Source of the DNA: Pseudomonadota bacterium
GTDB taxonomy: Bacteria > Pseudomonadota > Gammaproteobacteria > Burkholderiales > Burkholderiaceae_D
NCBI GenBank assembly: GCA_040758275.1
Contig: JBFLVV010000011.1
Coordinates: 6,648-70,647, forward strand
Direction: 5' to 3'
DNA length: 64,000 bases
Made by a program: the position numbers and the translations under genes. Every line of letters begins with the position of its first letter. Position 1 is the stretch's first letter. Positions 13,287-50,799 of the stretch are shown in pieces. The notes under the pieces were generated by a model that was not told the origin of the DNA, made no database searches, and saw only the letters and a program-made list of their open reading frames with translations.

Positions 13287-13334
13287 GCGCGAAGCTGCTC
13301 CGGGCATCACAGGCTCTTTAGATATCAAACACCT

Positions 13335-19348: not shown

Positions 19349-19357
19349 CGTGTTCTC

Positions 19358-20966: not shown

Positions 20967-20996
20967 AAATTTCGCCGCCATGGCAAGGAGAGACGC

Positions 20997-22313: not shown

Positions 22314-22317
22314 GTAC

Positions 22318-23811
<1,494 letters not shown>

Positions 23812-23855
23812 CGTTGCGCAGCATGTTCGTCGTCTCACAATATGAAGGGATGCAC

Positions 23856-26485: not shown

Positions 26486-26588
26486 GGTGGGCGGTCCTCC
26501 GCCCACGCGTTCAACTACATGGTGAATTGCGGCGCATCGGCCATTCCCAGGCTGCTTGAACGCGTGGGCGGGGACCGCCCACCCTACG
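26481..26588. repeat. REP doublet (REPIN-like, GTAG family), copy 2
   Basis: CGTAGGGTGGGCGGTCCTCCGCCCACGCGTTCAACT (26481-26516) faces inverted TTGAACGCGTGGGCGGGGACCGCCCACCCTACG (26556-26588). Its GTAG contains the preA stop codon. Confidence 0.85.
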
Positions 26589-26662
26589 AACACCGCGCAA
26601 CCGTCCATACGATTGCGCTACACTCGGTCGCACATCTTGCCACCGACGAGGAGAGTCCGACC

Positions 26663-29555
<2,893 letters not shown>

Positions 29556-29566
29556 GGAGAGCGAGC

Positions 29567-30805
29567 ATGACTGACCTGCGCATCAATGGCGAGCGCCTGT
29601 GGCAATCGCTGATGGACCTGGCCGCCATCGGCGCCACCGAGAAGGGCGGCGTCAAGCGCCTGGCCCTGACGGACCTCGACCGCCAGGGCCGCGACCTGGT
29701 GGTGCGCTGGGGACGCGAGGCGGGGCTGGAAGTGACGGTCGATCAGATCGGTAACGTCTTCATGCGCCGCGAGGGGCGCAACCCGAACGCGTTCCCCATC
29801 GTCACCGGCAGCCACGTCGACACCCAGCCCACCGGCGGCAAGTTCGACGGCAACTACGGCGTGCTCGCCGGCCTGGAAGTCGTGCGCACCCTGAACGAGC
29901 GCGGCATCCAGACCGAGGCGCCGATCGAGGTCGCCTTCTGGACCAATGAAGAGGGCTCGCGCTTCGTGCCGGTGATGATGGGTTCCGGCGTGTTCTGCGG
30001 CGCCTTCAGCCTGGAGACGGCCTACAATGCCCGCGACGTCGATGGCAAAAGCGTGCGCGAGGAACTGGAACGCATCGGCTACCTCGGCGACGAGGTGCCG
30101 GGCCGCCACCCGATCGGCGCCTATTTCGAAACCCACATCGAGCAGGGCCCGGTGCTGGAGGATGCGGACAAGGTGATCGGCGTGGTGCCGGCCGTGATGG
30201 GCCTGTCCTGGTACGACTGTGTCGTCAGCGGCATGGAAGCGCATGCCGGCCCGACCCCGATGGGCCTGCGCCGCGATGCGCTGCAGGTGGCCACCACCAT
30301 CATGCAGGAAGTCGTCCGGATCGCGAACCGCTATCCGCCCTATGGCCGGGGCACGGTCGGCATGGTGCAGGTGTTTCCGAACAGCCGCAACGTGATCCCG
30401 GGCCAGGTCAAGTTCAGCATCGACCTGCGCAACGTGAGCGACACGCTCCTGAACACGATGCACGAAGAGATGCTGGCCTTCGTCGCGCAGACGCGCCAGG
30501 AGAGCGGCCTGGGTATCGAGGTGGAGCGCGTGTCCTACTACCCGCCTTGCCCCTTCCACCCGGACTGCGTGAACGCGGTGCGGGCTGCCACCGAAAAACT
30601 GGGCTATTCGAGCATGGATGTGGTGTCCGGCGCCGGCCACGACGCCATCTACGCGGCGCGCGTCGCCCCTGCCGGCATGATCTTCGTGCCCTGCAAGGAC
30701 GGCATCAGCCACAACGAGATCGAGGACGCCCGGCCGGATCACCTGGAGGCCGGCTGCAATGTGCTGCTGCATGCGATGCTGGAGCGGGCGGGTACCGTGA
30801 GCTGA
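29567..30805 (+). CDS. Beta-ureidopropionase / N-carbamoyl-beta-alanine amidohydrolase (M20 Zn hydrolase, PydC-like)
   Basis: GSHVDTQP.GGKFDG, NEEG, ETHIEQGP, GAGHDA and ISHNEIE: all metal ligands intact. Last gene of the pyd operon. Confidence 0.9.
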   Translation: MTDLRINGERLWQSLMDLAAIGATEKGGVKRLALTDLDRQGRDLVVRWGREAGLEVTVDQIGNVFMRREGRNPNAFPIVTGSHVDTQPTGGKFDGNYGVLAGLEVVRTLNERGIQTEAPIEVAFWTNEEGSRFVPVMMGSGVFCGAFSLETAYNARDVDGKSVREELERIGYLGDEVPGRHPIGAYFETHIEQGPVLEDADKVIGVVPAVMGLSWYDCVVSGMEAHAGPTPMGLRRDALQVATTIMQEVVRIANRYPPYGRGTVGMVQVFPNSRNVIPGQVKFSIDLRNVSDTLLNTMHEEMLAFVAQTRQESGLGIEVERVSYYPPCPFHPDCVNAVRAATEKLGYSSMDVVSGAGHDAIYAARVAPAGMIFVPCKDGISHNEIEDARPDHLEAGCNVLLHAMLERAGTVS

Positions 30806-33967: not shown

Positions 33968-35722
33968 TCATGCGTATGTCTGAATGCGGCGCAGGAAGCC
34001 GAGCAGCACCTCGCCCGCCACCTCGGCATCGTCCGCCGTCATCGTCTCCAGCGGATTGTGGCTGATGCCGCCATTCCCGCAGCGGGCGAACAGCATGGCC
34101 ACTTCGGTGATCTTCGCCATCTCCATCGCGTCGTGGCCGGCGCCGGACAGCAGGTCGAAGCGCGGCAGGCCGGCCTCCTCGATGGCGGCGCCGAGCATGT
34201 CCATCAGGCGCGGCGAACAGGGGGCGGCGTCGGCCTCCACCAGCTTCCACAGCTTTTCCCCGATGCCGCGCCGTGCGCAGATGGCGGAGATGCCGGCCAG
34301 GATGTCATCCACCGCGGCCAGACGTTCCGCATCAACGGCCGCCCGGATGTCGAGCGACAGCCGGCACTGCCCGGGAATCACGTTGACCGAACCGGAAGGC
34401 ACCTCGAGCTGGCCGACCGTGCCGACCAGGGAGCCGCGTCCGCTGCAGCGCGCTTCCACCAGCAGCACGATTTCGGCGGCGGCCGCCGCCGCGTCGCGTC
34501 GCATGTCCATGGGCGTGGTGCCGGCATGGCTGGCGACGCCGCCCAGCTCGACCAGGTAGCGCGAGCTGCCCGCGATTGCTGTCACCACGCCGACCGGCAG
34601 GCCGCGCTGCAGCAGCACCGGTCCCTGCTCGATATGGACTTCGACGAAGCCGAGCAGGGAATCCGGGGAGCGGGCAATGGCGGAAATGGCGGATGGACCG
34701 TGGCCGACCGCCTCCAATGCGGAGCGCATCGACACGCCGTCGGCGTCGCGCTGCTCCAGCAGGGCGGCGTCGAAATGCCCGGTGATGGCGCTGCTGCCCA
34801 GGAAGGTGCCGCGATACCGCACCCCTTCCTCTTCCGCGAAACCGACGACTTCCAGATGGAAGGGCAGGCGCTCGCCACGTTCGTTCAGGTACTGCACCAG
34901 CGCGATCGGCAACAGGATGCCGAGCCGGCCGTCGTATTTTCCGCCGTTGCGCACGGTGTCGTAGTGCGAGCCGGTCATCAGGACCCTGGCGTCGGCCTGC
35001 GCCGCCGCGTAGCGCCCGACCACGTTGCCGACCGCGTCGATATGGGTATCCATGCCGGCCGCGCGCATCCACTCGGCCAATTGAGAGGCGGTGCGCAGGT
35101 GCGCCGGCGTCATGTAGGCGCAGGTCAGGCCCTCTTCGGTGTCGCTGATGGCGCCCAGGGTCTCGGCCCAGTCCATTACCCGCGGCCCGAAGCGCAGCTC
35201 CACGGCGAGCAGGGCGTTCAGGCGGATCTCGGCGATGCGGTGCACCTGGCGCAGGCATTCCTGCATCTCGAGGTCGATCCCGTTCTCCAGGCGCCGCGCG
35301 AAGGTGGCGATGATGGCGCTGCGGGTCAGGCCGCGCCCGGTCGGCCCCTTCACCGCGAGGATGAAGGGAAAGCCGAACTTCTCCCCGTACTGCGCGTTCA
35401 GTTCCTGCAGCCGCGCATATTCCTCGGGGCTGCAGCGGTCCAGGCCCGATGCCGCCTGCTCGCCCGTCGACTCCGCCGTGAGTTCGCCTGCGATGGCGGC
35501 CTTGCCGGCCAGTTCCGGGTGGGCGCGCAGCAGCGCCAGCTGCTCGTCGTTCGAGGCCTGCGTGACCACAGTCTGCAAGGCCTGCTTGAGGGCGGCGAGG
35601 CTGGGGAAGGGACGATACGCGGCCGCGCGCTCGGCGATCCATGGCGAGTGCTCGTAGATGCCGCGCAGGGCGTCGACAAAGGCGGCGGGCGGGCAGCTGT
35701 TCAGGTCCGGCAGGGTGGTCAT
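33968..35722 (-). CDS. Bifunctional OHCU decarboxylase (UraD) / allantoate amidohydrolase fusion
   Basis: N-terminal IYEHSPWIA, LLRAHPELAG, YGEKFGFPFILAV; C-terminal GSHYDTV..GGKYDGRLG, EEEG, EVHIEQG, GHDA and ISHNPLE. Confidence 0.92.
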   Translation of the reverse strand: MTTLPDLNSCPPAAFVDALRGIYEHSPWIAERAAAYRPFPSLAALKQALQTVVTQASNDEQLALLRAHPELAGKAAIAGELTAESTGEQAASGLDRCSPEEYARLQELNAQYGEKFGFPFILAVKGPTGRGLTRSAIIATFARRLENGIDLEMQECLRQVHRIAEIRLNALLAVELRFGPRVMDWAETLGAISDTEEGLTCAYMTPAHLRTASQLAEWMRAAGMDTHIDAVGNVVGRYAAAQADARVLMTGSHYDTVRNGGKYDGRLGILLPIALVQYLNERGERLPFHLEVVGFAEEEGVRYRGTFLGSSAITGHFDAALLEQRDADGVSMRSALEAVGHGPSAISAIARSPDSLLGFVEVHIEQGPVLLQRGLPVGVVTAIAGSSRYLVELGGVASHAGTTPMDMRRDAAAAAAEIVLLVEARCSGRGSLVGTVGQLEVPSGSVNVIPGQCRLSLDIRAAVDAERLAAVDDILAGISAICARRGIGEKLWKLVEADAAPCSPRLMDMLGAAIEEAGLPRFDLLSGAGHDAMEMAKITEVAMLFARCGNGGISHNPLETMTADDAEVAGEVLLGFLRRIQTYA

Positions 35723-35809
35723 GTTCAAGATTGCCTCCGTGGAGTCCGGGGATGATAAATCCTGCAACCCTGCCAGCTTATACGCTTGTGCGCATAGCGT
35801 GTATTGCGC

Positions 35810-36748
35810 CTACTTGGCCACCAGGGCGCGCGCGGCGCTGCTGACCTGGTCGCGCAGCCATTTGTGTTCGGACGACTGGTGCACGCGCTGGTGCCACAGC
35901 TGGTAGAAGCGCATGGGCGGGAACTTGATCGGCACCGTGAAGCTTTTCAGGGGCAGGGTGCGTTCGTAGAAGCGGATGAACTGGCGGCCGGTGGTGAGCA
36001 CCAGGTCGCTCTGGGTCAGCATATAGGGAATCACCCCGAAGTAGGGCGACTCGACGGCCACCTTGCGCTGCATGCCCTGGCGGTCCAGGTAAGCGTCGAT
36101 CACGCCGTGGTAGCCGGGCAGCATCTGGGACGGCGCCACGTGCGGCAGCGAGAGGTAATCCTCGACCGTCATGGCGTCGACGGCCGTGCGCCGCGCATAG
36201 GGGCTGTCGGCGCGCATGGTGCAGATGATCGGGTCTTCGAAGAGCTTGGACATGTGCAGGTGGGCCGGCGGCTCGTCCCAGTTGGCGATCACGAGGTCCA
36301 TCTCGCCGTCGGACAGCATGCGCAGGTAGTCCAGGCCCGGGCCCAGGCTGTGGAACACGACCTTGCTGCCGGGCGAGCCGCGGCGCAGCGCCGCCACGAC
36401 GTTCGGCAGGAACTGGGTGTCGAGGTAGTCCGGTGCGGCGATGTGGAAGGTGCGCGTCGCTTCCTCCGGCACGAAGGGCGACTTCTTCACGAACAGGCCC
36501 TCGGCCTCATCCAGGATGCGCTTGGCGGGTTTGAGCAGGGTCTCCCCGTGCTGGGTCGGCACCATGCCGCGCGCGCCGCGTACCAAGAGCGGGTCGCCGG
36601 TCAGTTCGCGCAGTTTGCGCAAGGAGGCCGAGATCGAGGGCTGCGGCTGGTTCAGCTTGAGGGCGACGCGCGAAACGTTCTTCTCCACCAGCAGCAGGTA
36701 GAGGATGCGGATCAGGTGCAGGTCGAGGTGCTGGGGCAGGCTGGACAT
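35810..36748 (-). CDS. LysR family regulator of the urate genes
   Basis: DLHLIRIL..LL.EKNVSRVA.KLNQPQPSISASLRKLRELTGDPLLVR HTH; divergent from puuD. Confidence 0.93.
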   Translation of the reverse strand: MSSLPQHLDLHLIRILYLLLVEKNVSRVALKLNQPQPSISASLRKLRELTGDPLLVRGARGMVPTQHGETLLKPAKRILDEAEGLFVKKSPFVPEEATRTFHIAAPDYLDTQFLPNVVAALRRGSPGSKVVFHSLGPGLDYLRMLSDGEMDLVIANWDEPPAHLHMSKLFEDPIICTMRADSPYARRTAVDAMTVEDYLSLPHVAPSQMLPGYHGVIDAYLDRQGMQRKVAVESPYFGVIPYMLTQSDLVLTTGRQFIRFYERTLPLKSFTVPIKFPPMRFYQLWHQRVHQSSEHKWLRDQVSSAARALVAK

Positions 36749-36765: not shown

Positions 36766-36798
36766 GCGTATATCAATCTGGTTATGTCGAATATACGC
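36766..36798. promoter_or_regulatory. Inverted repeat in the LysR/puuD divergent promoter
   Basis: GCGTATAT-N17-ATATACGC, perfect 8-bp arms. A related TATACGC...GCGTGTAT occurs at 35779-35804 upstream of the uraD fusion. Confidence 0.5.
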
Positions 36799-36862: not shown

Positions 36863-38110
36863 ATGGACGCCGTTGTTAACCTTGGATACCTGGGCCCCTA
36901 TGCCCTCGAATGGTTCAACCTGCTCGTGCGCTGGCTGCACATCATCACCGGCATCGCCTGGATCGGCGCTTCCTTCTATTTCGTCTGGCTCGACAACACC
37001 ATCCGCCCGCCGGCACCCGGCTCGGAACTGGCGAAGAAGGGCGTGTCGGGCGAGCTGTGGGCGGTGCATGGGGGCGGCTTCTACAACCCGCAGAAATACC
37101 TGGTGGCGCCCGCCGAGCTGCCCAGGGAACTCCACTGGTTCAAGTGGGAAGCCTATTCGACCTGGCTGTCGGGCTTCGCGCTGCTCGTCATCGTCTATTA
37201 CCTGAACGCCCAGGCCATGATGGTCGACCGCGGCGTGGCGGATCTCTCCAGCTGGCAGGCGATCGGCGTCGGCCTGGGCAGCCTGGTGGTCGGCTGGATC
37301 GTCTACGACCTGCTGTGCCGCTCGCCCCTGGGCAGGCACGACCTGGCCTTCGGCTTCACGATCTTCGCCTTCCTGGTCGCGAGCAGCTATGTGCTCACCC
37401 ACCTGCTCAGCGGCCGCGCCGCCTACCTGCATGTGGGCGCGATGATCGGCACCATGATGGTGGCGAACGTCGCCATGCTGATCATCCCGGGCCAGCGCAA
37501 GATGGTGAACGCCATGCTGGCGGGCGAGAAGCCCGATCCCGTCCACGGCATCAAGGCCAAGCAGCGCAGCGTCCACAATAACTATTTCACCCTGCCGGTG
37601 CTGTTCATCATGATCAGCAACCACTATGCGATGACCTACCGCCACGCATATTCCTGGGCGGTGCTGGCTGCGATCATGGCGGCGGGCGTGCTGATCCGCC
37701 ACTTCTTCAACCTGCGCCACAAGGGCCGTATCGAGTGGCGCTATCCGCTGGCCGGCGTGGCGCTCCTGGCCTGTGTCGCGGTGGCGATCGCACCGAAGGC
37801 GCCTGGACCAGCCGCAGCGGCGGCGCCCGGGATCGACGAGACGGCGCGCTTCGCCCAGGTCCGCACCATCATCGACCAGCGCTGCGTGTCCTGCCACGCC
37901 GCGCACCCGACCCAGCCGGGCTTCGCCACGGCGCCTGCGGGCGTGATGCTGGACACGGCGGAACACGTGAGCCAGAACGCCGCACGCATCTACCAGCAGA
38001 CCGTGCAGATGAAGGCGATGCCGCTGGCGAACCTCACCAACATGACCGATGCCGAACGGGCGCAGGTCGGCGCCTGGTTCGAAGCCGGCGCAAAAACAGG
38101 AAAGCACTGA
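36863..38110 (+). CDS. puuD: Membrane urate hydroxylase with C-terminal cytochrome c domain
   Basis: RWLHIITGIAWIGASFYFVWLD, ELWAVHGGGFY, HWFKWEAY, RSVHNNYFTLPV and C-terminal CVSCH heme motif. Confidence 0.92.
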   Translation: MDAVVNLGYLGPYALEWFNLLVRWLHIITGIAWIGASFYFVWLDNTIRPPAPGSELAKKGVSGELWAVHGGGFYNPQKYLVAPAELPRELHWFKWEAYSTWLSGFALLVIVYYLNAQAMMVDRGVADLSSWQAIGVGLGSLVVGWIVYDLLCRSPLGRHDLAFGFTIFAFLVASSYVLTHLLSGRAAYLHVGAMIGTMMVANVAMLIIPGQRKMVNAMLAGEKPDPVHGIKAKQRSVHNNYFTLPVLFIMISNHYAMTYRHAYSWAVLAAIMAAGVLIRHFFNLRHKGRIEWRYPLAGVALLACVAVAIAPKAPGPAAAAAPGIDETARFAQVRTIIDQRCVSCHAAHPTQPGFATAPAGVMLDTAEHVSQNAARIYQQTVQMKAMPLANLTNMTDAERAQVGAWFEAGAKTGKH

Positions 38111-39349
38111 ATGGACACCCAACTGCAAGCACGCCTGCTGGCCTGGATCGACGCCCACTTCGACGAGGAAGTCGGCTTCCTGCAGCAAGTCATCCGGATC
38201 CCGACCGACACCCCGCCGGGGAACAATGCGCCGCATGCCGAGGCCGTGGCAGGCATGCTGGAGCAGTACGGCTGGACGGCCGAGCGGCATGCCGTGCCCG
38301 CGCAGGCGGTGCGCGACTACGGCATGGAGAGCATCACCAACCTGATCGTGCGGCGCCCCTACGGTGCGGGCGGGCCGACCGTCGCGCTCAATGCCCACGG
38401 CGACGTGGTGCCGCCGGGCGAGGGCTGGACCAGGCCACCCTATGGCGCCGAGATCCATGACGGTGCGATGTATGGCCGCGCCGCCGCCGTCTCGAAGAGC
38501 GATTTCGCCACCTATGTGTTCGCGGTGCGGGCACTCGAAGCCCTCGGCGTGCCGCTCAAGGGCGCGCTCGAGCTGCACTTCACCTATGACGAGGAGTTCG
38601 GCGGCCTGTTAGGCCCGGGCTGGCTGCTGGAACAGAAGCTGACCCGGCCCGACTACGTGATCGCGGCCGGCTTCAGCTACAACATCGTCACCGCCCACAA
38701 CGCCTGCCTGCAGCTGGAGATCACGGTGCACGGCAAGGCCGGGCACGGCGCCATGCCCGAGACGGCGGTCGACGCGCTGCAGGCCGCGACCCGCATCCTG
38801 AACGCCATCTACGGCCAGCTTCCGGAGCTGAAGAAGATCAAGTCCAGGGTCCCGGGCATCGATTCCCCCACCATGCTGGTCGGGCGCATCGATGGCGGCA
38901 CCAATACCAATGTGGTGCCGGGCAAGGTGGTCATGAAGATGGACCGCCGCATGATTCCCGAGGAAGATCCGGTGGCGGTGGAAGCGCAGGTGCGCAGGCT
39001 GATCGAGGAGGCGGTGGCCGGCATGCCCGGCATCCGCCTCGAGATCCGGCGCCTGCTGCTCTCGCATGCGCTGCGGCCCCTGCCAGGTTCGGAACGCCTG
39101 GTGGAGAGCCTGCAGCGCCACGGCCGCGCAGTCCTCGGGGAGGAGATCCCGGCCCAGGGCACGCCGCTGTATGCGGATGCGCGCCTCTATGGCGAGCACG
39201 GCATCCCGGCGGTACTGTATGGCGCCGGCCCGCGCACGGTGCTCGAGGCGAACGCCAAGAAGGCCGACGAGCGCCTGGAGCTCGAGGACCTGCGCAAGGC
39301 CACCAAGGTGGTGGCCTTAACGCTGCTCGACTTCCTCGCCATCGCCTGA
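38111..39349 (+). CDS. M20 (ArgE/DapE-like) family protein with non-canonical metal site
   Basis: NAHGDVVP, YGRAAAVSKSD, YDEEFGG, GKAGHGA..P, GGTNTNVVPG and YGAGP...AKKADE give the M20 fold. Coupled to the puuD stop. Confidence 0.85.
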   Translation: MDTQLQARLLAWIDAHFDEEVGFLQQVIRIPTDTPPGNNAPHAEAVAGMLEQYGWTAERHAVPAQAVRDYGMESITNLIVRRPYGAGGPTVALNAHGDVVPPGEGWTRPPYGAEIHDGAMYGRAAAVSKSDFATYVFAVRALEALGVPLKGALELHFTYDEEFGGLLGPGWLLEQKLTRPDYVIAAGFSYNIVTAHNACLQLEITVHGKAGHGAMPETAVDALQAATRILNAIYGQLPELKKIKSRVPGIDSPTMLVGRIDGGTNTNVVPGKVVMKMDRRMIPEEDPVAVEAQVRRLIEEAVAGMPGIRLEIRRLLLSHALRPLPGSERLVESLQRHGRAVLGEEIPAQGTPLYADARLYGEHGIPAVLYGAGPRTVLEANAKKADERLELEDLRKATKVVALTLLDFLAIA

Positions 39350-41545
39350 TGGCGTGCGCGGGACGATGGCGAACTGCGGCCCGAGACCGTAGTCGGGCTT
39401 GACGCTGCGCGCCATGAACTGACGCCAGGCTTTCCGGCCAGGCTCGCCGAGCGCGTCCACCGCGTAGGCAAGGGCGGGCTGCATGTTGGAAGGGTAGCCG
39501 GCCTCGCTGTCCGAATAGCCGGTCATCTGGCCGGGCTTCACCTTGAGCGCGGCGGCCATCTGCGGACTGTCGCAGGGCAGGCCGAGCGTCTCTTCCGGCA
39601 TGCTGGCGCGGAAGGCCTGTCCAATGCTGGTGTAATAGGGGGCGGATGCGTTATCGCGCACCATCATGGAGTACATGGCGCCGTTCAGCCAGCAGGCGCC
39701 ATTGCCGGTCATGCGCTGCACCGGGAAGTCCGCCTTCCAGCGCAGCAGTTCGCGCGCCTTGTCGAAGCCCAGCTCGGCGACATGGCCGATGGCTGCAGTG
39801 AAAAAATCGTCCTGCCAGGGGGCGAGGCCGCGCTTGTCCTTGTAGACGACGGCGTAGCCGTTCACGATCACGCCCAGAGCATTCGCGTTCCGGTTGTGCG
39901 TATAGTTGCTGTTGTACCAGTCCAGGTTATGGTCGAGGATCTGCAGGAAGTGGCGCTTGAGCGGATGCTCGTCGGGCGTGATGTAGGCCGCCTCTCCCAG
40001 CGTGCGCATGCTCCAGGCCTGGCCGCGCACCTGCTCTGGCTTGAGCAGGCCCTTGCCGTGTTCACGGTAATCCGGATTCGATGCAAACACGTTATACATG
40101 GCCCAGAACTGCAGTTCTTCGAGGTAGAAGTGCTCACCCGTGAGCAGGTAGGGCAGATAGGCAAAGGCCGGCTGGTGGGATATGTCGTGCTTGTTCGGCG
40201 TAACGCAGGCGCTTTTCTGCGCGCATTCCGGGAACTTCTCTCGCTTGCCGGTCGCGGGATTGAACGACTCGGCGGCGCCGATGGCCGTCATGTAGGGGTA
40301 GTCGAGCAGGCTCACCGGCAGGCCGGTGCGGCGGTCGCGGTAGTGCATCGACCAGCTGCCCGCCAGGTCGGCGGTGCCCAGGGTCATCTCGCGGGCGCGC
40401 GGGTCCATGCCAAGCAGGTACATCGCGGCCCATGCCGGCAGCAGGCCGATGTCGGCCCGGCCGCCCGTGGTCGGCATGGCGCGCATGGCCATGCCGACGC
40501 CCATGGGCTCGGTCCTGTCGCCGGTCCACGATGCGTACATCCGCGCCAGCCGCTTCTCGTCGATATGCACCGACTGGTCGTAGTTCGGCAGGGCCTTCGA
40601 CGCGATCAGCTGGCGCGTGTCGTGGCGTACATGCACGGCAGGCACGCCGCCCCACCAGAACTGCTTGCGCCAGCGTGCATGGTGGTAGTGGTTCAACTGC
40701 TCGCGCTTGTAGACCTCGTCCTTCCCGACAGTGATGCGGGCGTCGTAGACGAAGTTCTGCGGGCCCGGCTCCCAGGTCCAGTTGTTCTCCACGGTGACGT
40801 CGACGCGGGCCCGGCCGGCCTGCGGATACCAGCGCAGGGCGAAGCGCGCGGCCAGGTGCGGATGGGCGCGGCCCTCGGCGTCGAGCAGGGGCGTGGACAC
40901 CAGCCATTCGCGCACGAGCGGGCCGTCGAGCCAGAGGGCTGGCTTGTTCTCCAGCAGCGGACGCAGGGTGGCGGCCCAGGTCTTGCCCTTGAAACGCGCC
41001 TCGACCCTGGCGTCCAGCTCCTTGGGGGGCAGCGCGCTGCCCGGCGTCGCGCCCTTGGAGGCGCCGGTCACCAGCCCGATCACGATGGGACGCGAGCCCG
41101 CCAGGCGTTCGAGCACCAGCGACACGACCGCATGCCGCACCGAGCCGTCGGGATGGTGGGCCTTGATGTCGGTTTGCACCGGCAGGGTGCCGCCGTCGGC
41201 AAGCTTCGCCTGCAGCTGCTGGCCGGGCTTGAACTCGCCGACGCCGAAGACCTGTCCGAAGGTGACCGGGACATCGGCCTGGTCGCGCTTGCCGCTGTTC
41301 TCGAAGGAGAGCGTGGCCAGCGCGCCGGGGATCGCAGCTGGGGGCGTGGGTGCGGGGCGTCCGGGCGTGCGGGGCTTATCCGCTTTTGCGGTCGGCCCCG
41401 TCCCGTAACGCAGTTCGATCACGCGCCCGGCATCGAGCCCGCCGCCGGCCGGCAAGCCCTTGGGGGTGTCGGGCAGGAACTGGGCGTGGGCCTCGCACAG
41501 GAGGGCAGTGGACAGGAAGAAGAGAATCAGGCGGGAGATCAGCAT
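39317..41545 (-). CDS. Secreted 742-aa protein of unknown function (possible RIFT-barrel plus alpha/alpha-barrel, lyase-like)
   Basis: Signal peptide ending AHA-Q, Pro-rich linker, VPVTFGQVF and HPDGSVRHAVVS, and aromatic-rich helical C-terminus. GC3-rich codon usage like neighbours. Confidence 0.75.
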   Translation of the reverse strand: MLISRLILFFLSTALLCEAHAQFLPDTPKGLPAGGGLDAGRVIELRYGTGPTAKADKPRTPGRPAPTPPAAIPGALATLSFENSGKRDQADVPVTFGQVFGVGEFKPGQQLQAKLADGGTLPVQTDIKAHHPDGSVRHAVVSLVLERLAGSRPIVIGLVTGASKGATPGSALPPKELDARVEARFKGKTWAATLRPLLENKPALWLDGPLVREWLVSTPLLDAEGRAHPHLAARFALRWYPQAGRARVDVTVENNWTWEPGPQNFVYDARITVGKDEVYKREQLNHYHHARWRKQFWWGGVPAVHVRHDTRQLIASKALPNYDQSVHIDEKRLARMYASWTGDRTEPMGVGMAMRAMPTTGGRADIGLLPAWAAMYLLGMDPRAREMTLGTADLAGSWSMHYRDRRTGLPVSLLDYPYMTAIGAAESFNPATGKREKFPECAQKSACVTPNKHDISHQPAFAYLPYLLTGEHFYLEELQFWAMYNVFASNPDYREHGKGLLKPEQVRGQAWSMRTLGEAAYITPDEHPLKRHFLQILDHNLDWYNSNYTHNRNANALGVIVNGYAVVYKDKRGLAPWQDDFFTAAIGHVAELGFDKARELLRWKADFPVQRMTGNGACWLNGAMYSMMVRDNASAPYYTSIGQAFRASMPEETLGLPCDSPQMAAALKVKPGQMTGYSDSEAGYPSNMQPALAYAVDALGEPGRKAWRQFMARSVKPDYGLGPQFAIVPRTPSGDGEEVEQR

Positions 41546-44296: not shown

Positions 44297-44507
44297 GGTG
44301 TTCTCCTTGAATACAGTAAAGTGTGTTGCGATGTTGCGTTGCAGTATAAAGACGTCCGCGTCATAAATAAACTTTCGGTTTGTGATCTCAGCGATAGATG
44401 CGGCGAATAATTGTCGACTTCTCTCGCTCGCAGATATTTACGGCGCGAATGTCTCATTGCCGCCACTGTGAATGAAAAGGGCTTGCGAGCTCGGCTGCTT
44501 TGCGGGG

Positions 44508-44523
44508 TGGTGCGAATCTTGCA
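44508..44523 (+). promoter_or_regulatory. Candidate sigma54 promoter of nasTS
   Basis: TGGTGCGAATCTTGCA has GG-N10-GC spacing. Confidence 0.5.
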
Positions 44524-44535
44524 TGTCCTTCCGGC

Positions 44536-45177
44536 ATGAAATCACCAGGCAGTGCCTCACCTTCCTTGCGCATCGTTGTCGTCAATCCCCCACTCGCGAC
44601 GGAGGAACCGGACGTCACCGCCGCCGAACAGGCGCGCCGCAGCGCCGCCCTGCGCATCGGCCTGCTCGAATGCGGCTACGACCTGGTGGCCTCGCTGCCG
44701 GCCGACGCCTGGCTTGCGGAGCGCATCGGCCAGCTGCAGCCGGACATGATCATCGTCGACAGCGCCTCCAGCGCGCGCGACATCCTCGAGCACATCGTCA
44801 TCGCCACCATGGATGCGCGTCGCCCTATCGTGCTGTTCACCGAAGACGACACGCCAGGCAGCATGGACGCGGCCCTGGATGCCGGCGTTTCGGCCTATAT
44901 CGTGGCCGGGCTGCAGGCCGAGCGGGTCAAGCCGGTGCTCGATGTGGCGCTGGCGCGCTTCCGGCGCGAGCAGAAGCTGCTCGAGGAACTGGAAGGCACG
45001 CGCCAGAAGCTGGCCGAACGCAAGCTGGTCGACCGCGCCAAGGGTCTCCTGATGGCGCGCTACCGGCTGAGCGAAGAACAGGCCTACCAGCGCCTGCGCA
45101 GCATGGCGATGAACAAGAACATGAAGCTGGCCGAGATCGCGCAGCGGCTGATCGACGTGGAAGACCTGCTCGGCTAG
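44536..45177 (+). CDS. nasT: ANTAR-domain antiterminator (pseudo-receiver plus ANTAR)
   Basis: QPDMIIVD, RPIVLFTED, GVSAYIVAG and LAERKLVDRAKGLLM...EEQAYQRLRSMAMNKNMKL. Confidence 0.92.
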   Translation: MKSPGSASPSLRIVVVNPPLATEEPDVTAAEQARRSAALRIGLLECGYDLVASLPADAWLAERIGQLQPDMIIVDSASSARDILEHIVIATMDARRPIVLFTEDDTPGSMDAALDAGVSAYIVAGLQAERVKPVLDVALARFRREQKLLEELEGTRQKLAERKLVDRAKGLLMARYRLSEEQAYQRLRSMAMNKNMKLAEIAQRLIDVEDLLG

Positions 45178-45203
45178 CGCCGGCGGATGGATAAAGGATC
45201 ACT

Positions 45204-46340
45204 ATGGCAGTCTTTCAGGACGGCGGCGCGTGGCTCGCCGGCTCGGACAAACCGGAAGTTCGCACGGTGCGGATCGGCTTCATGCCGCTCGCCGATTGTG
45301 CGCCTGTGGTGATGGCGTCGGTGCTCGGCTTCGACGAGAAGCACGGGCTGCGCTTTCAACTCAGCCGCGAACTGTCCTGGACCGGCATGCGCGACCGCCT
45401 GCTGGCGGGTGAGCTCGATGCGGCCCACGTGCTGCACGGCCTGCTGGCCGGCCTGCAGATGGGGATCGGCACCCGGCCGCGCCAGATGGCGGTCCTGATG
45501 AACCTGAACCAGAACGGGCAGGGCATCACGCTCTCGCGCGTGCTTTCGCAGCAGGGGCTGAAGAGCGCGGCGCGGCGCCTGCGCTTCGCCCACACCTTCC
45601 CGACCGGGAACCATGCGATGTTCCTTTACTACTGGCTGGCGGCGCAGGGCATCGACCCGCTGGCGGACTGCGACATGGTGACGGTCCCGCCGGGCCAGAT
45701 GGCGGCCAGCCTGGCGGCCGGCCACATCGACGGCTTCTGCGCGGGCGAACCCTGGGGCCAGCGCGCCGTGCGCGAGGGTCTGGGCGCGCTGGCGGCCTCC
45801 AGCGACGCCATCTGGCCGGACCATCCGGGCAAGGTGCTCGGCACGAGCGCGGATTTCGCGGCCGCGCATCCGCACACCTGCCGCGCGATGATCGCGGCCC
45901 TGCTGGACACGGCGCGCTGGCTGGATGCGTCGCGCCTGAACCGCGAAGCGGCGGCCGAGGTGCTGTCCAGTCCCGGCTACGTGAACGCGGACCGCGGGCT
46001 GCTCCAGGTCTGCCTGACTGGACGCGGCAGCGACCCGGTGAACGTCCGTGGCCACAACGGCCTGCGCTTCTTCGGCGGCGGCGAGGCCACTTTTCCCTGG
46101 CTGTCCGACAGCATGTGGTTCCTGACCCAGCAGCGGCGCTGGGGGCTGCTTCGCACCGATCCGCACTGGCGGAGGGTAGCCGCGGAGCTCAACCGCATCG
46201 ACCTGTACCGCGATGCCGCCGCCCAGGCAGGTGTCGACGTCCCCGCTGCCGATACGCGCAGCTCGACCCTGCTCGACGGGCGCGTGTGGGACGGCAGCAA
46301 CCCCGAAGCCTACCTCGCCTCATTCGAGGGCGCGGCTTGA
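45204..46340 (+). CDS. nasS: Cytoplasmic nitrate sensor, NrtA/CmpA-like binding protein
   Basis: PEVRTVRIGFMPLADCAP, DGFCAGEPWG, WPDHPGKVL and SDSMWFLTQ..RWG. No signal peptide; follows nasT. Confidence 0.9.
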   Translation: MAVFQDGGAWLAGSDKPEVRTVRIGFMPLADCAPVVMASVLGFDEKHGLRFQLSRELSWTGMRDRLLAGELDAAHVLHGLLAGLQMGIGTRPRQMAVLMNLNQNGQGITLSRVLSQQGLKSAARRLRFAHTFPTGNHAMFLYYWLAAQGIDPLADCDMVTVPPGQMAASLAAGHIDGFCAGEPWGQRAVREGLGALAASSDAIWPDHPGKVLGTSADFAAAHPHTCRAMIAALLDTARWLDASRLNREAAAEVLSSPGYVNADRGLLQVCLTGRGSDPVNVRGHNGLRFFGGGEATFPWLSDSMWFLTQQRRWGLLRTDPHWRRVAAELNRIDLYRDAAAQAGVDVPAADTRSSTLLDGRVWDGSNPEAYLASFEGAA

Positions 46341-46355
46341 AGCGGTGCGCCCGCA

Positions 46356-46392
46356 TGCATCATTCGCGGGCATGTTGCACCGCAATGTAGCG
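46356..46392. promoter_or_regulatory. Tandem candidate NtrC sites
   Basis: TGCATCATTCGCGGGCA (46356-46372) and TGCACCGCAATGTAGCG (46376-46392) resemble TGCACCA-N3-TGGTGCA; they lie upstream of a sigma54 promoter. Confidence 0.55.
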
Positions 46393-46434
46393 CGCCGCGG
46401 GCGATCGACGCTGCGCTTCCCTCTGGCGCTGGCG

Positions 46435-46450
46435 TGGCACGGCTCTTGCT
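46435..46450 (+). promoter_or_regulatory. Sigma54 promoter of the nitrate assimilation operon
   Basis: TGGCAC-GGCTC-TTGCT matches the -24/-12 consensus exactly. Confidence 0.85.
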
Positions 46451-46463
46451 TATAGAGGGTACG

Positions 46464-46583
46464 GGGTCAATGGCGATCCTCTTCATACTTTCGCCGGTCT
46501 AACGAAGGACCGGCAACCAGGACAACGGCGTCCGCGGCTACCTGCTTCATTCACGAGCAGGAGCGCGGACGCCGTTTTGTTTT
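46464..46583 (+). promoter_or_regulatory. ANTAR-responsive leader RNA: hexaloop hairpins plus an overlapping terminator
   Basis: GGGTC-AATGGC-GATCC; GCCGGTCT-AACGAA-GGACCGGC; GGAC-AACGGC-GTCC (all loops A1/G4). Terminator AACGGCGTCCGCG (46524-46536) pairs with CGCGGACGCCGTT (46564-46576), then TTGTTTT. Confidence 0.85.
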
Positions 46584-46597
46584 CCAAAGGAAGAAAC

Positions 46598-47893
46598 ATG
46601 GCCAGCAAAGCGGACAGCATCAAGCTTCTCTCTTTCGACACGGCGCCGATGCGCGCCTTCCACCTGACCTGGGTGGCCTTCTTCATCTGCTTCTTCGCCT
46701 GGTTCGCCTGCGCACCGCTCATGCCGGTGATCAAAGGCGAATTCGGCCTCTCGATGGAGCAGGTCGCCAACATCAATATCGCGGCCGTCGCCATCACCAT
46801 CTTCGTGCGCCTCATCGTCGGCCCGCTGTGCGACCGCTACGGCCCGCGCAAGACCTATACCGGCCTGCTGCTGCTCGGCGCCATTCCCGTGCTGGGCGTG
46901 GCCATGGCGCAGAGCTACGAAAGCTTCCTGCTGTTCCGCCTCGGGATCGGCGCCGTGGGCGCCAGCTTCGTCATCACCCAGTACCATACCTCGGTGATGT
47001 TCGGCCCGAAGGTGGTCGGCACCGCCAACGCGGCGGCGGCCGGCTGGGGCAACAGCGGCGGCGGCGCCGCCCAGGCCCTGATGCCGCTGCTGCTGACAAG
47101 CCTCACCATGCTGGGCGTCTCGCAAGCCCTGAGCTGGCGCGTGGCCCTGGTGGTGCCGGGCCTGATGATGATCGTGATGGCCTTCTTCTACTGGCGCTAC
47201 ACCCAGGATTGCCCGGCCGGTAACTACGACGACTTGCGTGCGCAAGGCGACCTTCCCCAGGGCGGCAAGGGCGGATGGGCGAGCTTCCGCGAGGCCTGCC
47301 GCAACCACCGCGCCTGGCTGCTCTTCGTCACCTACGGCGCTTGCTTCGGCATCGAGATCTTCATCCACAACATCGCGGCCGTGTACTACGTCGACAAGTA
47401 CGGTCTCTCGCTGGGCGCCGCGGGCCTGGCGGCCGGCAGCTTCGGCCTGCTGGCCCTGTTCGCCCGCGCCCTGGGCGGCTGGTTGTCGGACCGCAGCGCA
47501 CGCAAGGGAAGCCTGAACAGCCGCGTCACCGTGCTCTTCGTCCTGATGATCGGCGAGGGCCTGGGCTTGCTGTGGTTCGCCCAGGCCGACGGCGTGGCCT
47601 TCGCCGTGATCGCCATGCTCTGCTTCGGCCTCTTCACCCACATGGCCTGCGGCGCCACCTATGCGCTGGTGCCCTTTGTCGCACCGAAGGCGCTGGGCGG
47701 CGTTGCCGGCATCGTCGGCGCGGGCGGCAATGTCGGCGCCGTGCTGGCCGGCTTCCTGATGAAGGGCACGGGCGACATCGCCCAGACCCTCACCATCCTG
47801 AGCGTGCTGGTGCTGGTCTCGAGCCTGTGCGCCATCGCCGCCCGTTTCACCATCACTGCAGCGCAGGACGCGCCGCTCGCAACAGCCGCATAA
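46598..47893 (+). CDS. NarK/NasA family nitrate/nitrite MFS transporter
   Basis: MRAFHLTWVAFFICFFAWFA, FVITQYHTSVMF...GTANAAAAGWGNSGGG nitrate signature, and ACGATYALVPF. Confidence 0.92.
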   Translation: MASKADSIKLLSFDTAPMRAFHLTWVAFFICFFAWFACAPLMPVIKGEFGLSMEQVANINIAAVAITIFVRLIVGPLCDRYGPRKTYTGLLLLGAIPVLGVAMAQSYESFLLFRLGIGAVGASFVITQYHTSVMFGPKVVGTANAAAAGWGNSGGGAAQALMPLLLTSLTMLGVSQALSWRVALVVPGLMMIVMAFFYWRYTQDCPAGNYDDLRAQGDLPQGGKGGWASFREACRNHRAWLLFVTYGACFGIEIFIHNIAAVYYVDKYGLSLGAAGLAAGSFGLLALFARALGGWLSDRSARKGSLNSRVTVLFVLMIGEGLGLLWFAQADGVAFAVIAMLCFGLFTHMACGATYALVPFVAPKALGGVAGIVGAGGNVGAVLAGFLMKGTGDIAQTLTILSVLVLVSSLCAIAARFTITAAQDAPLATAA

Positions 47894-47903
47894 GGAGTTC
47901 GCA

Positions 47904-50438: not shown

Positions 50439-50451
50439 ACAGGAGCCCATC

Positions 50452-50799
50452 ATGCAACGAGACCTGCAACTTCAACACTGGACCGCTGTCTGCGCCATCG
50501 ACGAGATCGTACCCGACACCGGCGTCTGCGCGCTGCTGAACGATCGCCAGGTGGCGATCTTCCGCGTCGGGGTGGAAGAGCCGCGCGTGTTCGCCATCGA
50601 TAACTTCGACCCCAACGCCGGGGCGGCGGTCCTGTCGCGCGGCCTGGTCGGCAGCATTGGCGAGCGCATCGTGGTCGCTTCGCCCATCTACAAGCAGCAC
50701 TTCGACCTGCACAGCGGCGAATGCCTGGAAGCGCCCGAGCATTCGGTGGCCAGCTATCCGGCCCGCGTGGAAGGAGGCAAGGTATGGATCGCCCCGTGA
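50452..50799 (+). CDS. nirD: Nitrite reductase small subunit
   Basis: AIDNFDP..GAAVLSRGLVG and VVASPIYKQHFDLHSGECLE. SD AGGAG upstream. Confidence 0.94.
   Translation: MQRDLQLQHWTAVCAIDEIVPDTGVCALLNDRQVAIFRVGVEEPRVFAIDNFDPNAGAAVLSRGLVGSIGERIVVASPIYKQHFDLHSGECLEAPEHSVASYPARVEGGKVWIAP

What the first reader, a model, noticed from the sequence alone, without database searches (positions are those of the whole stretch)
38111..39349. M20 protein in the urate operon has lost three of five canonical metal ligands
Seen, compared with ArgE/DapE motifs: the HxD His is kept (NAHGD) and DEE is kept. GRGxxDMKG becomes GRAAAVSKS (Asp to Val, 38489-38491), GEP becomes AGFS (Glu to Gly, 38669-38671) and AHxxDE becomes AKKADE (His to Lys, 39257-39259). 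The two other M20 enzymes in this window keep all ligands. The ORF is intact, has host-like codon usage and is coupled to puuD. Known: these residues build the dinuclear Zn site. Inference: a repurposed M20 fold (new chemistry, mononuclear or Lys-based site, or a binding/scaffold role) in purine catabolism. HIU hydrolase, allantoinase and the ureidoglycine steps are not encoded in the window.
Basis: partly seen in the sequence, partly recalled or inferred. Interest (0 to 1): 0.68.

Follow-up and report, generated by a model that had tools for sequence, protein, structure and literature searches.

The report
Metal-poor M20 enzyme of urate breakdown
The gene after the urate oxidase gene puuD encodes a well-conserved M20-fold protein that has lost three of its five metal-binding residues; its family sits in allantoin and urate breakdown operons of many bacteria, so it is probably an undescribed enzyme (or enzyme partner) of purine catabolism, not a decayed deacetylase.

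Summary
The ORF at 38111-39349 is an intact M20/ArgE-DapE-fold protein (AlphaFold pLDDT 96.7). It keeps His96, Asp98 and Glu161/Glu162. The bridging Asp is Val127, the site-1 Glu is gone (Ala186/Gly187), and the C-terminal His is Lys383.

This is not private decay. Val127 and Lys383 are fixed in 81 orthologs across Burkholderiales (67-96% identity). dN/dS is 0.10-0.15, as low as for puuD.

In 71 of 80 genome loci, the gene directly upstream belongs to purine catabolism:
- puuD in 49 loci
- a uraD-allantoate amidohydrolase (AAH) fusion in 21
- allantoicase in 1

More distant relatives (29-59% identity) also lack the Asp and the Glu but keep the His. They lie next to AAH in allantoin operons of Alphaproteobacteria and in PucR-regulated operons. 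No homolog of ureidoglycine aminohydrolase (AllE) was found in 92 loci. Ureidoglycolate lyase (AllA) was found in one.

Best reading (inferred, about 0.4): a metal-poor or metal-free enzyme that acts just after allantoate cleavage, on ureidoglycine and/or ureidoglycolate. Main rival: a non-catalytic partner of AAH. I found no curated model and no paper on this subfamily.

The parts
38111..39349 (+). M20x: a 412-aa M20/ArgE-DapE-fold protein with a degenerate metal site. This is the finding.
   Evidence: The ORF is intact. It matches Pfam M20 plus M20_dimer. TIGR01910 scores 213.1 bits against a cut-off of 217.6. The AlphaFold model has pLDDT 96.7 and pTM 0.93. The best Foldseek matches are DapE 7uoi, ArgE 8uw6 and 3pfo.
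38396..38404 (+). Codons for His96-Gly97-Asp98 (the HxD motif). The site-1 His ligand and the structural Asp are both kept.
   Evidence: Both residues are invariant in 81 orthologs and in the wider Val127 class.
38489..38491 (+). Val127 (GTC), at the position of the bridging Asp (DapE Asp100).
   Evidence: Alignments to 7uoi, 7rsf, 3pfo, 5vo3 and 3ic1. Val in 81 of 81 orthologs.
38591..38596 (+). Glu161-Glu162. Both the general base and the site-2 Glu ligand are kept.
   Evidence: Invariant.
38666..38671 (+). Ala186-Gly187, at the position of the site-1 Glu (DapE Glu163).
   Evidence: The pairwise alignment puts the Glu on Ala186. The profile alignment puts it on Gly187. Residues 185-189 hold no acidic residue in any of the 81 orthologs.
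39257..39259 (+). Lys383 (AAG), at the position of the C-terminal His ligand (DapE His349).
   Evidence: Lys in 80 of 81 orthologs, with a gap in the other one. Relatives at 53-59% identity still have His here.
38744..38746 (+). His212 of the lid (dimerisation) domain, kept.
   Evidence: It aligns with the 'GH.A.P' His of DapE and ArgE and is invariant in the Val127 class. That this His helps stabilise the transition state in DapE is from my own knowledge.
38945..38950 (+). Arg279-Arg280 of the DRR motif in the lid domain, kept.
   Evidence: Invariant in the Val127 class. A role in binding the substrate carboxylate is an inference by analogy with DapE and ArgE.
36863..38110 (+). puuD, the membrane cytochrome-c urate oxidase. 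It is the first gene of the operon, and its stop codon abuts the M20x start codon.
   Evidence: Pfam Urate_ox_N, E 5.7e-140. It has a C-terminal CVSCH haem motif. The junction reads tgaATG.
36766..36798 (.). Operator-like inverted repeat GCGTATAT-N17-ATATACGC between lysR and puuD.
   Evidence: Read directly from the sequence. The core GTATAT...TATGTCGAATATAC is conserved in the same intergenic region of about 45 Oxalobacteraceae loci. Binding by the LysR regulator is an inference.
35810..36748 (-). LysR-family regulator, transcribed divergently from puuD-M20x.
   Evidence: Pfam HTH_1 plus LysR_substrate. Syntenic in the Oxalobacteraceae loci.
33968..35767 (-). Fusion of OHCU decarboxylase (UraD) with an allantoate amidohydrolase-like M20 domain that keeps a complete ligand set.
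   Evidence: Pfam OHCU_decarbox plus M20. NF006775 scores 504 bits against a cut-off of 479, and TIGR03164 scores 186 bits against a cut-off of 96. Ligands checked.

Best explanation
M20x belongs to an uncharacterised, widespread branch of the ArgE/DapE part of the M20 family that has given up the two-metal centre.

What is kept:
- the fold
- the general-base Glu161
- His96 and Glu162
- the lid-domain residues His212 and Arg279/Arg280 (these bind and polarise N-acyl or N-carbamoyl amino acids in classical members; that role is from my own knowledge)

Proposed function:
- M20x works in the ureide part of purine catabolism, directly after allantoate is cleaved by an allantoate amidohydrolase (AAH) or, in one locus, by allantoicase.
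- Its most likely substrates are (S)-ureidoglycine and/or (S)-ureidoglycolate. Both are N-carbamoyl glycines and fit an ArgE/DapE-type pocket.
- It would convert them towards glyoxylate, most simply by eliminating urea or ammonia. That is acid-base chemistry and needs no di-metal-activated water.
- In this way it would fill the place that AllE (ureidoglycine aminohydrolase) and AllA (ureidoglycolate lyase) occupy in other bacteria.

Proposed active site:
- In the older form of the family, His96, Glu162 and His383 could hold a single metal.
- In the Burkholderiales purine clade, which includes this window, the His is replaced by Lys383. Its ammonium group may take over the electrostatic role of that metal.

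What is shown and what is inferred:
- Shown: the fold, the residue pattern, its conservation and selection, and the gene linkage.
- Inferred: the substrate, the reaction type, the metal content and the role of Lys383.
For: 1. The fold is real and selection is strong.
- The AlphaFold model has pLDDT 96.7, and its best structural matches are DapE and ArgE.
- 81 orthologs share 67-96% identity, with Val127, Lys129, Phe188 and (in 80 of 81) Lys383 fixed.
- dN/dS is 0.10-0.15, against 0.11-0.24 for puuD and 0.16-0.31 for uraD-AAH.
- Between Massilia and Comamonadaceae, M20x is 67-72% identical, while PuuD is 46-51% and UraD-AAH is 52-59%.

2. The catalytic and binding residues are invariant down to about 28% identity: His96, Asp98, Glu161, Glu162, His212, Arg279, Arg280, Asp356 and Arg358.

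3. Gene linkage in 80 genome loci:
- puuD directly upstream of M20x in 49 loci
- uraD-AAH directly upstream of M20x in 21 loci, inside GntR-puuE-uraD/AAH-M20x operons that lie beside uraH, puuD, xdhC, guanine deaminase, glycerate kinase and gcl/hyi
- puuE-allantoicase-M20x in Castellaniella

4. The deeper family shows the same partner:
- AAH then M20x as a pair in Roseomonas and Azospirillum; the pair overlaps by 4 nt in Roseomonas
- racemase-puuE-AAH-M20x in Aminobacter, beside urea transporter and urease genes
- AAH-M20x-puuE on a metagenome contig
- racemase-M20x-AAH-PucR-allantoinase-like, and M20x-AAH-PucR-amidohydrolase, in relatives at 29-36% identity

5. The expected next enzymes are missing from these loci. 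An AllE homolog was found in 0 of 92 loci, AllA in 1 and allantoicase in 1, while AAH-like genes were found in 71.

6. The AAH partners keep their own full ligand set and their own lid motif (HAGT.PM..R.D), so they do not visibly need a second subunit.

7. M20 relatives are known to work with a single metal. EcAAH has Mn only in site II, and an L-N-carbamoylase has a single Co site (PMC6117287).
Against: - No biochemical or genetic data exist for any member that I could find.
- Eight orthologs (Collimonas, Herbaspirillum, Noviherbaspirillum) have no purine gene within 10 kb.
- Other branches of the same ligand-poor radiation sit next to ornithine cyclodeaminase-like genes or hydantoinase clusters, so the family is functionally diverse.
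- Tight translational coupling with AAH fits a protein complex as well as it fits consecutive enzymes.
- AllE, AllA, UraH and PuuE could be encoded elsewhere in these genomes. I could only see 10-15 kb on either side.
- tblastn with E. coli queries can miss divergent cupin proteins.
- I had no access to model coordinates, so I could not check whether Asp131, Ser128 or other class-specific invariant residues rebuild a metal site.
Confidence: 0.4

Rival explanations
1. M20x is a non-catalytic M20 paralog (a pseudoenzyme). It pairs through its dimerisation domain with the AAH-like M20 enzyme and stabilises it, regulates it, or channels the unstable ureidoglycine.
For: Only two of five metal ligands remain. 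The gene is almost always adjacent to an AAH-like M20 gene and is often translationally coupled to it. M20 proteins dimerise through the lid domain (established knowledge). More distant relatives (P0129, P0130) have also lost His96 and the general base.
Against: The general base Glu161, His96, His212 and Arg279/Arg280 are invariant over the AAH-linked class. M20x is more conserved than AAH itself. The AAH partners keep their own lid residues and ligands. In Castellaniella, and in 49 Oxalobacteraceae loci, M20x is not next to AAH on the same strand. Collimonas and Herbaspirillum orthologs have no AAH gene within 10 kb.
Confidence: 0.22
2. M20x works in purine catabolism but at another step. Candidates are a replacement for HIU hydrolase or allantoinase (both missing from the Massilia locus), allantoin racemisation, or handling of a side product of PuuD.
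For: In Oxalobacteraceae M20x is co-transcribed with puuD. Neither uraH nor puuE lies within 10 kb there.
Against: In 18 Comamonadaceae-type loci a canonical UraH (ending in YRGS) and a PuuE sit in the same cluster as M20x. The alphaproteobacterial AAH-M20x pairs have no urate oxidase nearby. Aminobacter and the PucR-type operons already encode a racemase and an allantoinase.
Confidence: 0.1
3. M20x is an ordinary metal-dependent ArgE/DapE-type deacylase or carbamoylase whose metal site is rebuilt by nearby residues, for example the class-specific invariant Asp131.
For: TIGR01910 scores only 4.5 bits below its cut-off. Asp131, Ser128 and His196 are invariant in the class. Mononuclear M20 enzymes exist (PMC6117287).
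Against: The bridging Asp is a hydrophobic Val in all orthologs. The site-1 Glu is replaced by Ala/Gly and the site-2 His by Lys. All DapE and ArgE equivalog models score far below their cut-offs, for example TIGR01246 at 81 against 362 and TIGR01892 at 136 against 298. The gene context is purine catabolism, not lysine or arginine synthesis.
Confidence: 0.08
4. M20x is a decaying or strain-private remnant with no function.
For: Three canonical ligands are missing.
Against: The ORF is intact and the substitutions are fixed in 81 orthologs over several families. dN/dS is 0.10-0.15. The fold is predicted with confidence. Synteny is conserved.
Confidence: 0.01

Closest known systems
DapE (N-succinyl-L,L-diaminopimelate desuccinylase) and ArgE (acetylornithine deacetylase), M20 family
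   Same: Both have the two-domain fold. Foldseek gives E 2e-34 to 7uoi and E 4e-32 to 8uw6, with TM-scores of 0.74-0.80. The HxD motif, the DEE general base plus ligand, the lid-domain His and the DRR/Arg motif are all present.
   Different: The bridging Asp is Val, the site-1 Glu is Ala/Gly and the site-2 His is Lys. Equivalog models score far below their cut-offs. The gene context is purine catabolism rather than amino-acid biosynthesis.
Allantoate amidohydrolase (AllC/AAH), ureidoglycolate amidohydrolase and L-carbamoylases (M20 carbamoylase branch)
   Same: They share the M20 superfamily, the same pathway and the same operons, and act on N-carbamoyl-glycine-type substrates. Variable metal occupancy is known in this branch (PMC6117287).
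   Different: M20x belongs to the ArgE/DapE branch, not the carbamoylase branch. The AAH partners score 356-435 bits on TIGR01879, whereas that model is not among the 25 best matches shown for M20x (55 matched in all). AAH keeps His/Asp/Glu/His/His; M20x keeps only two ligand positions.
AllE (UGlyAH, a Mn-cupin) and AllA (ureidoglycolate lyase)
   Same: M20x sits after the allantoate-cleaving gene. E. coli keeps allE beside allC; Pseudomonas keeps allA after alc (from my own knowledge). The function proposed for M20x overlaps theirs.
   Different: The folds are unrelated and there is no sequence similarity. Activity of M20x on these substrates has not been tested. Neither homolog is found in the M20x loci, apart from one AllA match.
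5-nitroanthranilate aminohydrolase (PDB 5k8m to 5k8p), an atypical M20 enzyme
   Same: It is among the closest structural matches (TMq 0.78-0.82) and sequence matches (profile E 1e-42). From my own memory of the 2016 paper, it uses a labile single metal loaded together with the substrate and performs non-peptidase chemistry.
   Different: Identity is only about 20%. Its ligand pattern was not compared here. It comes from a different pathway (nitroaromatic degradation).
PuuE allantoinase (a metal-independent member of the polysaccharide deacetylase family)
   Same: It is a precedent, in the same pathway and often the same operon, of a metallohydrolase fold that works without its ancestral metal. 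That PuuE is metal-independent is from my own knowledge. The gene itself was identified.
   Different: The fold and the reaction are unrelated. It is an analogy, not a relative.

Membership tests
Peptidase M20 (fold and superfamily) | A catalytic alpha/beta domain with an inserted dimerisation (lid) domain | tested here: met
   Pfam PF01546 at E 4e-25 and PF07687 at E 2.5e-18. AlphaFold model with pLDDT 96.7. Foldseek probability 1.00 to DapE, ArgE and CPG2.
Peptidase M20 (co-catalytic metallohydrolase) | Five ligands of the two-metal site: His, bridging Asp, Glu, Glu/Asp and His | tested here: not met
   Only His96 and Glu162 remain. Val127, Ala186/Gly187 and Lys383 replace the other three. 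The pattern is fixed in 81 orthologs.
Peptidase M20 (co-catalytic metallohydrolase) | General-base Glu next to the ligand Glu, and the Asp of the HxD motif | tested here: met
   Glu161 and Asp98 are present and invariant.
ArgE/DapE family deacylase (TIGR01910 subfamily) | Score at or above the curated cut-off of 217.6 bits | tested here: inconclusive
   M20x scores 213.1 bits, just below the cut-off. Orthologs and relatives scatter around it, from 165 to 227 bits.
DapE or ArgE proper (equivalog models) | Score above the cut-off of TIGR01246, NF009557, TIGR01892 or NF003474 | tested here: not met
   Scores against cut-offs are 81/362, 106/284, 136/298 and 89/460 bits.
Allantoate amidohydrolase / hydantoinase-carbamoylase amidases (TIGR01879) | Match to the family model, and the His/Asp/Glu/His/His ligand set | tested here: not met
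   The model is not among the 25 best matches shown for M20x (55 matched in all). The two neighbouring M20 proteins score 356 and 435 bits and keep the ligands.
Ureidoglycine aminohydrolase (AllE) / ureidoglycolate lyase (AllA), as functional analogs only | Catalysis on (S)-ureidoglycine or (S)-ureidoglycolate | not testable with these tools
   The only evidence is gene position after AAH or allantoicase and the absence of AllE and AllA homologs in the loci.
Mononuclear atypical M20 enzymes (5-nitroanthranilate aminohydrolase type) | A single labile metal site formed together with the substrate | not tested
   Only structural and sequence similarity was seen. Ligand positions of 5k8m were not compared, and the metal content of M20x is unknown.

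The most novel reading that the evidence does not exclude
M20x and its relatives are a new enzyme of the ureide pathway. On this reading, an M20 fold has swapped its two-metal centre for a Lys/Glu/His acid-base site (Lys383 replacing the last His ligand in Burkholderiales). It removes the remaining ureido or amino group from ureidoglycine or ureidoglycolate to give glyoxylate. It would thereby replace both the Mn-cupin AllE and the lyase AllA in many Proteobacteria and in PucR-regulated operons.
Probability: 0.3. Interest if true: 0.8.

Novelty: new variant of a known kind. Interest (0 to 1): 0.62.

Why it matters
- The bacterial route from allantoate to glyoxylate is taken to need AllE plus AllA or a ureidoglycolate amidohydrolase. 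Many Burkholderiales and alphaproteobacterial loci, and PucR-regulated operons on metagenome contigs, show an AAH gene without either of these nearby, and instead carry this ligand-poor M20 gene.
- If M20x is the missing enzyme, a gap in purine and allantoin nitrogen recycling in common soil and rhizosphere bacteria would be closed.
- Thousands of genes now named 'ArgE/DapE family deacylase' or 'succinyl-diaminopimelate desuccinylase' would need a corrected name.
- It would be a clear case of a co-catalytic metallohydrolase fold turned to metal-poor chemistry.
- If it is instead a dead partner of AAH, it would be, as far as I could find, an undescribed bacterial M20 pseudoenzyme with a defined partner.
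- The wider point holds either way: of the 58 nearest full-length cluster representatives, only 17 keep all five ligands. Ligand-poor M20 proteins are therefore a large, unexplored group.

Tried and rejected
- **HIU hydrolase replacement.** Rejected. 18 loci carry a canonical UraH beside M20x.
- **Hidden allantoinase in the window.** The AllB-like gene 28104-29555 scores as a dihydropyrimidinase. It lies in a reductive pyrimidine cluster with PreA, an NCS1 permease, an M20 carbamoylase, an aminotransferase and an aldehyde dehydrogenase.
- **Strain-private decay.** Rejected.
- **Literature.** Nine full-text searches found nothing on this subfamily. I also read the PuuD paper (PMC4562309), the ureidoglycine carbamoyltransferase paper (PMC4016543), a pseudopeptidase review and a guanidine review. 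The Puggioni et al. 2014 Biochemistry paper on gene context in the ureide pathway is not in the library, so I could not check it.
- **Annotated context from large Burkholderia, Caballeronia and Variovorax replicons.** The records carry no gene table in PLSDB.
- **Curated models.** NCBIfam has no model specific to the subfamily.
- **Heterodimer model.** I did not try an AlphaFold model of a fused M20x-AAH pair. Without interface scores or a homodimer control, the result could not have been interpreted.
- **Whole-genome presence or absence of allE, allA, uraH and puuE.** Could not be done.
Full report
**1. The observation**

The window has 66% G+C and is Massilia-like; the closest proteins and loci come from Massilia. 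The ORF 38111-39349 (+) is intact, 412 aa long, and has a GC3 of 0.89 like its neighbours. It matches Pfam Peptidase_M20 and M20_dimer. Its best NCBIfam match is the broad ArgE/DapE subfamily model TIGR01910, at 213.1 bits against a cut-off of 217.6. All DapE and ArgE equivalog models score far below their cut-offs.

Alignments to solved DapE and ArgE structures give this picture of the five metal ligands:

| DapE ligand | M20x residue | Status |
|---|---|---|
| His67 | His96 | kept |
| Asp100 (bridging) | Val127 | lost |
| Glu134/Glu135 | Glu161/Glu162 | kept |
| Glu163 | Ala186 or Gly187 | lost |
| His349 | Lys383 | lost |

The Glu163 position depends on the alignment. The pairwise alignment gives Ala186 and the profile alignment gives Gly187. 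Residues 185-189 contain no acidic residue either way.

Each former metal site therefore keeps one ligand. The general base Glu161 and the Asp98 of the HxD motif are intact.

**2. The neighbourhood in the window**

- puuD (Urate_ox_N, with a C-terminal CVSCH haem motif) runs from 36863 to 38110. Its TGA stop abuts the M20x ATG, and an AGGAAAG sequence lies 6 nt upstream.
- A LysR regulator (35810-36748) and a fusion of OHCU decarboxylase with an allantoate amidohydrolase-like M20 domain (33968-35767) are transcribed divergently. For the fusion, NF006775 scores 504 bits against a cut-off of 479.
- The lysR-puuD spacer carries an inverted repeat, GCGTATAT-N17-ATATACGC (36766-36798). Its core is conserved in about 45 Oxalobacteraceae loci.
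- The other M20 gene (29567-30805) belongs to a reductive pyrimidine cluster. That cluster contains a PreA-like dehydrogenase, an NCS1 permease, a dihydropyrimidinase (TIGR02033 at 573 bits against a cut-off of 393), a carbamoylase, an aminotransferase and an aldehyde dehydrogenase.
- Both of these M20 proteins keep the full His/Asp/Glu/His/His ligand set.
- The window has no HIU hydrolase, PuuE, allantoicase, AllE or AllA.

**3. Not decay**

A scan of one genome per species returned more than 580 relatives, and the best 80 loci were kept. In those 80 orthologs plus the window (67-96% identity; Oxalobacteraceae, Comamonadaceae, Alcaligenaceae and others):

- Val127, Ser128, Lys129, Phe188, His96, Asp98 and Glu161/Glu162 are invariant.
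- Lys383 is present in 80 of 81 sequences; the other has a gap there.

dN/dS against close Massilia orthologs is 0.10-0.15. The comparable values are 0.11-0.24 for puuD and 0.16-0.31 for uraD-AAH. Between Massilia and Comamonadaceae, M20x is more conserved (67-72%) than PuuD (46-51%) or UraD-AAH (52-59%).

AlphaFold2, run with a 55-sequence alignment, gives pLDDT 96.7 and pTM 0.93. The nearest solved folds are DapE, ArgE, the putative deacetylase 3pfo and 5-nitroanthranilate aminohydrolase.

**4. Gene linkage among the orthologs**

Of the 80 genome loci:

| Gene directly upstream of M20x | Loci |
|---|---|
| puuD (Oxalobacteraceae) | 49 |
| uraD-AAH fusion | 21 |
| allantoicase, in a puuE-alc-M20x operon (Castellaniella) | 1 |
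| no purine gene within 10 kb (Collimonas, Herbaspirillum, Noviherbaspirillum) | 8 |
| contig too short to tell | 1 |

The count of 49 includes L018, where puuD overlaps the M20x start by a few bases; one search listed that locus separately.

The Comamonadaceae-type clusters read GntR-puuE-(uraD-AAH)-M20x. On the opposite strand they carry uraH, xdhC and puuD, together with xanthine dehydrogenase, guanine deaminase, glycerate kinase or gcl/hyi. Canonical UraH and PuuE coexist with M20x in these clusters, so M20x does not replace either of them.

**5. The deeper family**

A search of 1.8 billion cluster representatives found 478 relatives at E <= 1e-30. Of the 58 nearest full-length representatives, only 17 keep all five ligands and 41 keep one to three. 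The protein therefore sits inside a large ligand-poor radiation of ArgE/DapE-like proteins.

Relatives at 53-59% identity have Val for the bridging Asp and no site-1 Glu, but they still have the C-terminal His (NAHRADE or NGHRADE). These include Roseomonas, Azospirillum and Burkholderia homologs and a metagenome protein; the Aminobacter homolog (about 55% identical) belongs to the same class. The His-to-Lys change is thus the only loss specific to the Burkholderiales purine clade.

Context of these relatives:

- **Roseomonas and Azospirillum:** AAH followed directly by the M20x-like gene. The two genes overlap by 4 nt in Roseomonas, where a LysR gene also lies alongside.
- **Aminobacter pSR1:** allantoin racemase-like gene, puuE, AAH, M20x-like gene, followed by urea transporter and urease genes.
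- **Metagenome contig L081:** AAH, M20x-like gene, puuE.
- **Relatives at 29-36% identity:** racemase, M20x-like, AAH, PucR, allantoinase-like amidohydrolase; and M20x-like, AAH, PucR, amidohydrolase. Start and stop codons overlap in these operons.
- **Burkholderia aenigmatica:** C-N hydrolase, amidohydrolase, M20x-like gene, racemase.
- **Other branches:** next to ornithine cyclodeaminase-like genes, and in one case next to urease. On Burkholderia plasmid pBTU the gene lies with an amino-acid ABC transporter, oxidase-like genes and a dihydropyrimidinase.

Across 92 loci, AAH-like genes occur in 71. E. coli AllE homologs occur in none, AllA in one and allantoicase in one.

Across the AAH-linked class, down to about 28% identity, the following are invariant: His96, Asp98, Arg123, Ser128, Lys129, Asp131, Asp160, Glu161, Glu162, His196, His212, Asp278, Arg279, Arg280, Asp356, Arg358, Asp386 and Glu387.

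**6. Interpretation**

The shown facts are these:

- an intact, strongly constrained M20 fold
- a metal site reduced to two ligands plus a Lys
- preserved general base and lid residues
- a conserved place in urate and allantoin operons next to the allantoate-cleaving enzyme
- no AllE or AllA in those operons

From these I infer that M20x acts right after allantoate cleavage. Ureidoglycine (the AAH product) and ureidoglycolate (the allantoicase product) are both N-carbamoyl glycines, the kind of ligand an ArgE/DapE pocket binds.

Converting either one to glyoxylate by eliminating urea or ammonia is acid-base chemistry. It needs no di-metal-activated water. That would explain why the metal centre could be lost while Glu161, His96, His212 and the Arg pair stayed fixed.

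A function that removes the remaining ureido group fits both the AAH context and the Castellaniella allantoicase context. A pure AllE-like deaminase fits only the AAH context.

In the older form of the family, His96, Glu162 and His383 could hold one metal. M20 relatives with a single occupied site are known (PMC6117287). In the clade of this window, Lys383 may take over that role. All of this is inference. I put the specific statement at about 0.4, and the general statement 'functions in allantoin/ureide catabolism' at about 0.85.

**7. Rivals**

- **Non-catalytic partner of AAH, about 0.22.** Adjacency and translational coupling argue for it. The invariant catalytic residues, the higher conservation than AAH, the self-sufficient AAH lid motifs and the loci without an adjacent AAH argue against it.
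- **Another step of the pathway, about 0.1.** UraH, PuuE and racemase genes coexist with M20x in many clusters, which disfavours this.
- **An ordinary deacylase with a rebuilt metal site, about 0.08.** I cannot fully exclude this, because I had no model coordinates to see where the invariant Asp131 points.
- **Decay.** Excluded.

**8. Known or new**

NCBIfam has no model for the subfamily. Source annotations are generic or wrong ('ArgE/DapE family deacylase', 'succinyl-diaminopimelate desuccinylase'). Nine literature searches and six papers consulted gave nothing on it. One relevant paper (Puggioni et al. 2014, Biochemistry) could not be consulted.

I classify M20x as a new variant of a known kind: a known fold with an undescribed active-site type and a probable new pathway role.

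**9. Limits**

- Only 10-15 kb of context per locus was available.
- No whole-genome profiles could be made.
- I had no coordinates for the model.

Noticed in passing
window 10308-15244: A type VI secretion spike gene (VgrG, with Phage_GPD, T6SS_Vgr and DUF2345 domains) is followed by an N-acetylmuramidase (13335-14582) and a small ORF with no family match (14579-15244). This looks like an effector plus immunity island. The three ORFs did not pass the GC3 filter (>0.78) that the surrounding genes pass.
   Followed up: partly
window 18722-30805: A complete-looking reductive pyrimidine catabolism cluster. It holds a TetR (YcdC-like) regulator, a MocR-type GntR regulator, a class-III aminotransferase, an aldehyde dehydrogenase, a PreA-like dehydrogenase (25004-26485), an NCS1 permease, a dihydropyrimidinase and an M20 carbamoylase. 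In many Oxalobacteraceae loci it lies directly beside the urate genes.
   Followed up: partly
window 36766-36798: A perfect 8-bp inverted repeat, GCGTATAT-N17-ATATACGC, lies between lysR and puuD. Its core, GTATAT...TATGTCGAATATAC, is conserved in about 45 Oxalobacteraceae loci. It is a likely operator of the LysR regulator.
   Followed up: partly
window 39317-41545 (-): A 742-aa convergent gene whose only family match is a short PcRGLX-like N-terminal domain. Its 3' end overlaps the 3' end of M20x by 33 nt, which leaves no room for a terminator between the two genes.
   Followed up: no
window 44472-54685: A nitrate/nitrite assimilation gene set: an NMT1_2 binding protein, an MFS transporter, a NirB-like nitrite reductase at 47904-50438 and a further flavoprotein reductase.
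   Followed up: no
L058 11319-12533 (Aquabacterium MAG): An ORF with a eukaryote-type ubiquitin domain (Pfam ubiquitin, E 1e-28) lies directly downstream of the M20x ortholog. It could be contamination of the MAG, a transfer, or a bacterial ubiquitin-like gene.
   Followed up: no
L093, L099, L102 (metagenome contigs): Other ligand-poor branches of the same M20 radiation (P0145, P0185, P0198) sit next to ornithine cyclodeaminase/mu-crystallin genes. P0198 also lies next to a urease gamma/beta gene. This suggests further unknown functions in the radiation.
   Followed up: partly
L083 (Burkholderia plasmid pBTU) and L088 (B. aenigmatica plasmid): M20x-like genes (about 57% identical, with His383 kept) lie in hydantoinase-type clusters. 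One holds a dihydropyrimidinase, a DHDPS-like gene and oxidase subunits. The other holds a C-N hydrolase, an amidohydrolase and an Asp/Glu racemase. These may be non-orthologous allantoin or hydantoin pathways.
   Followed up: partly
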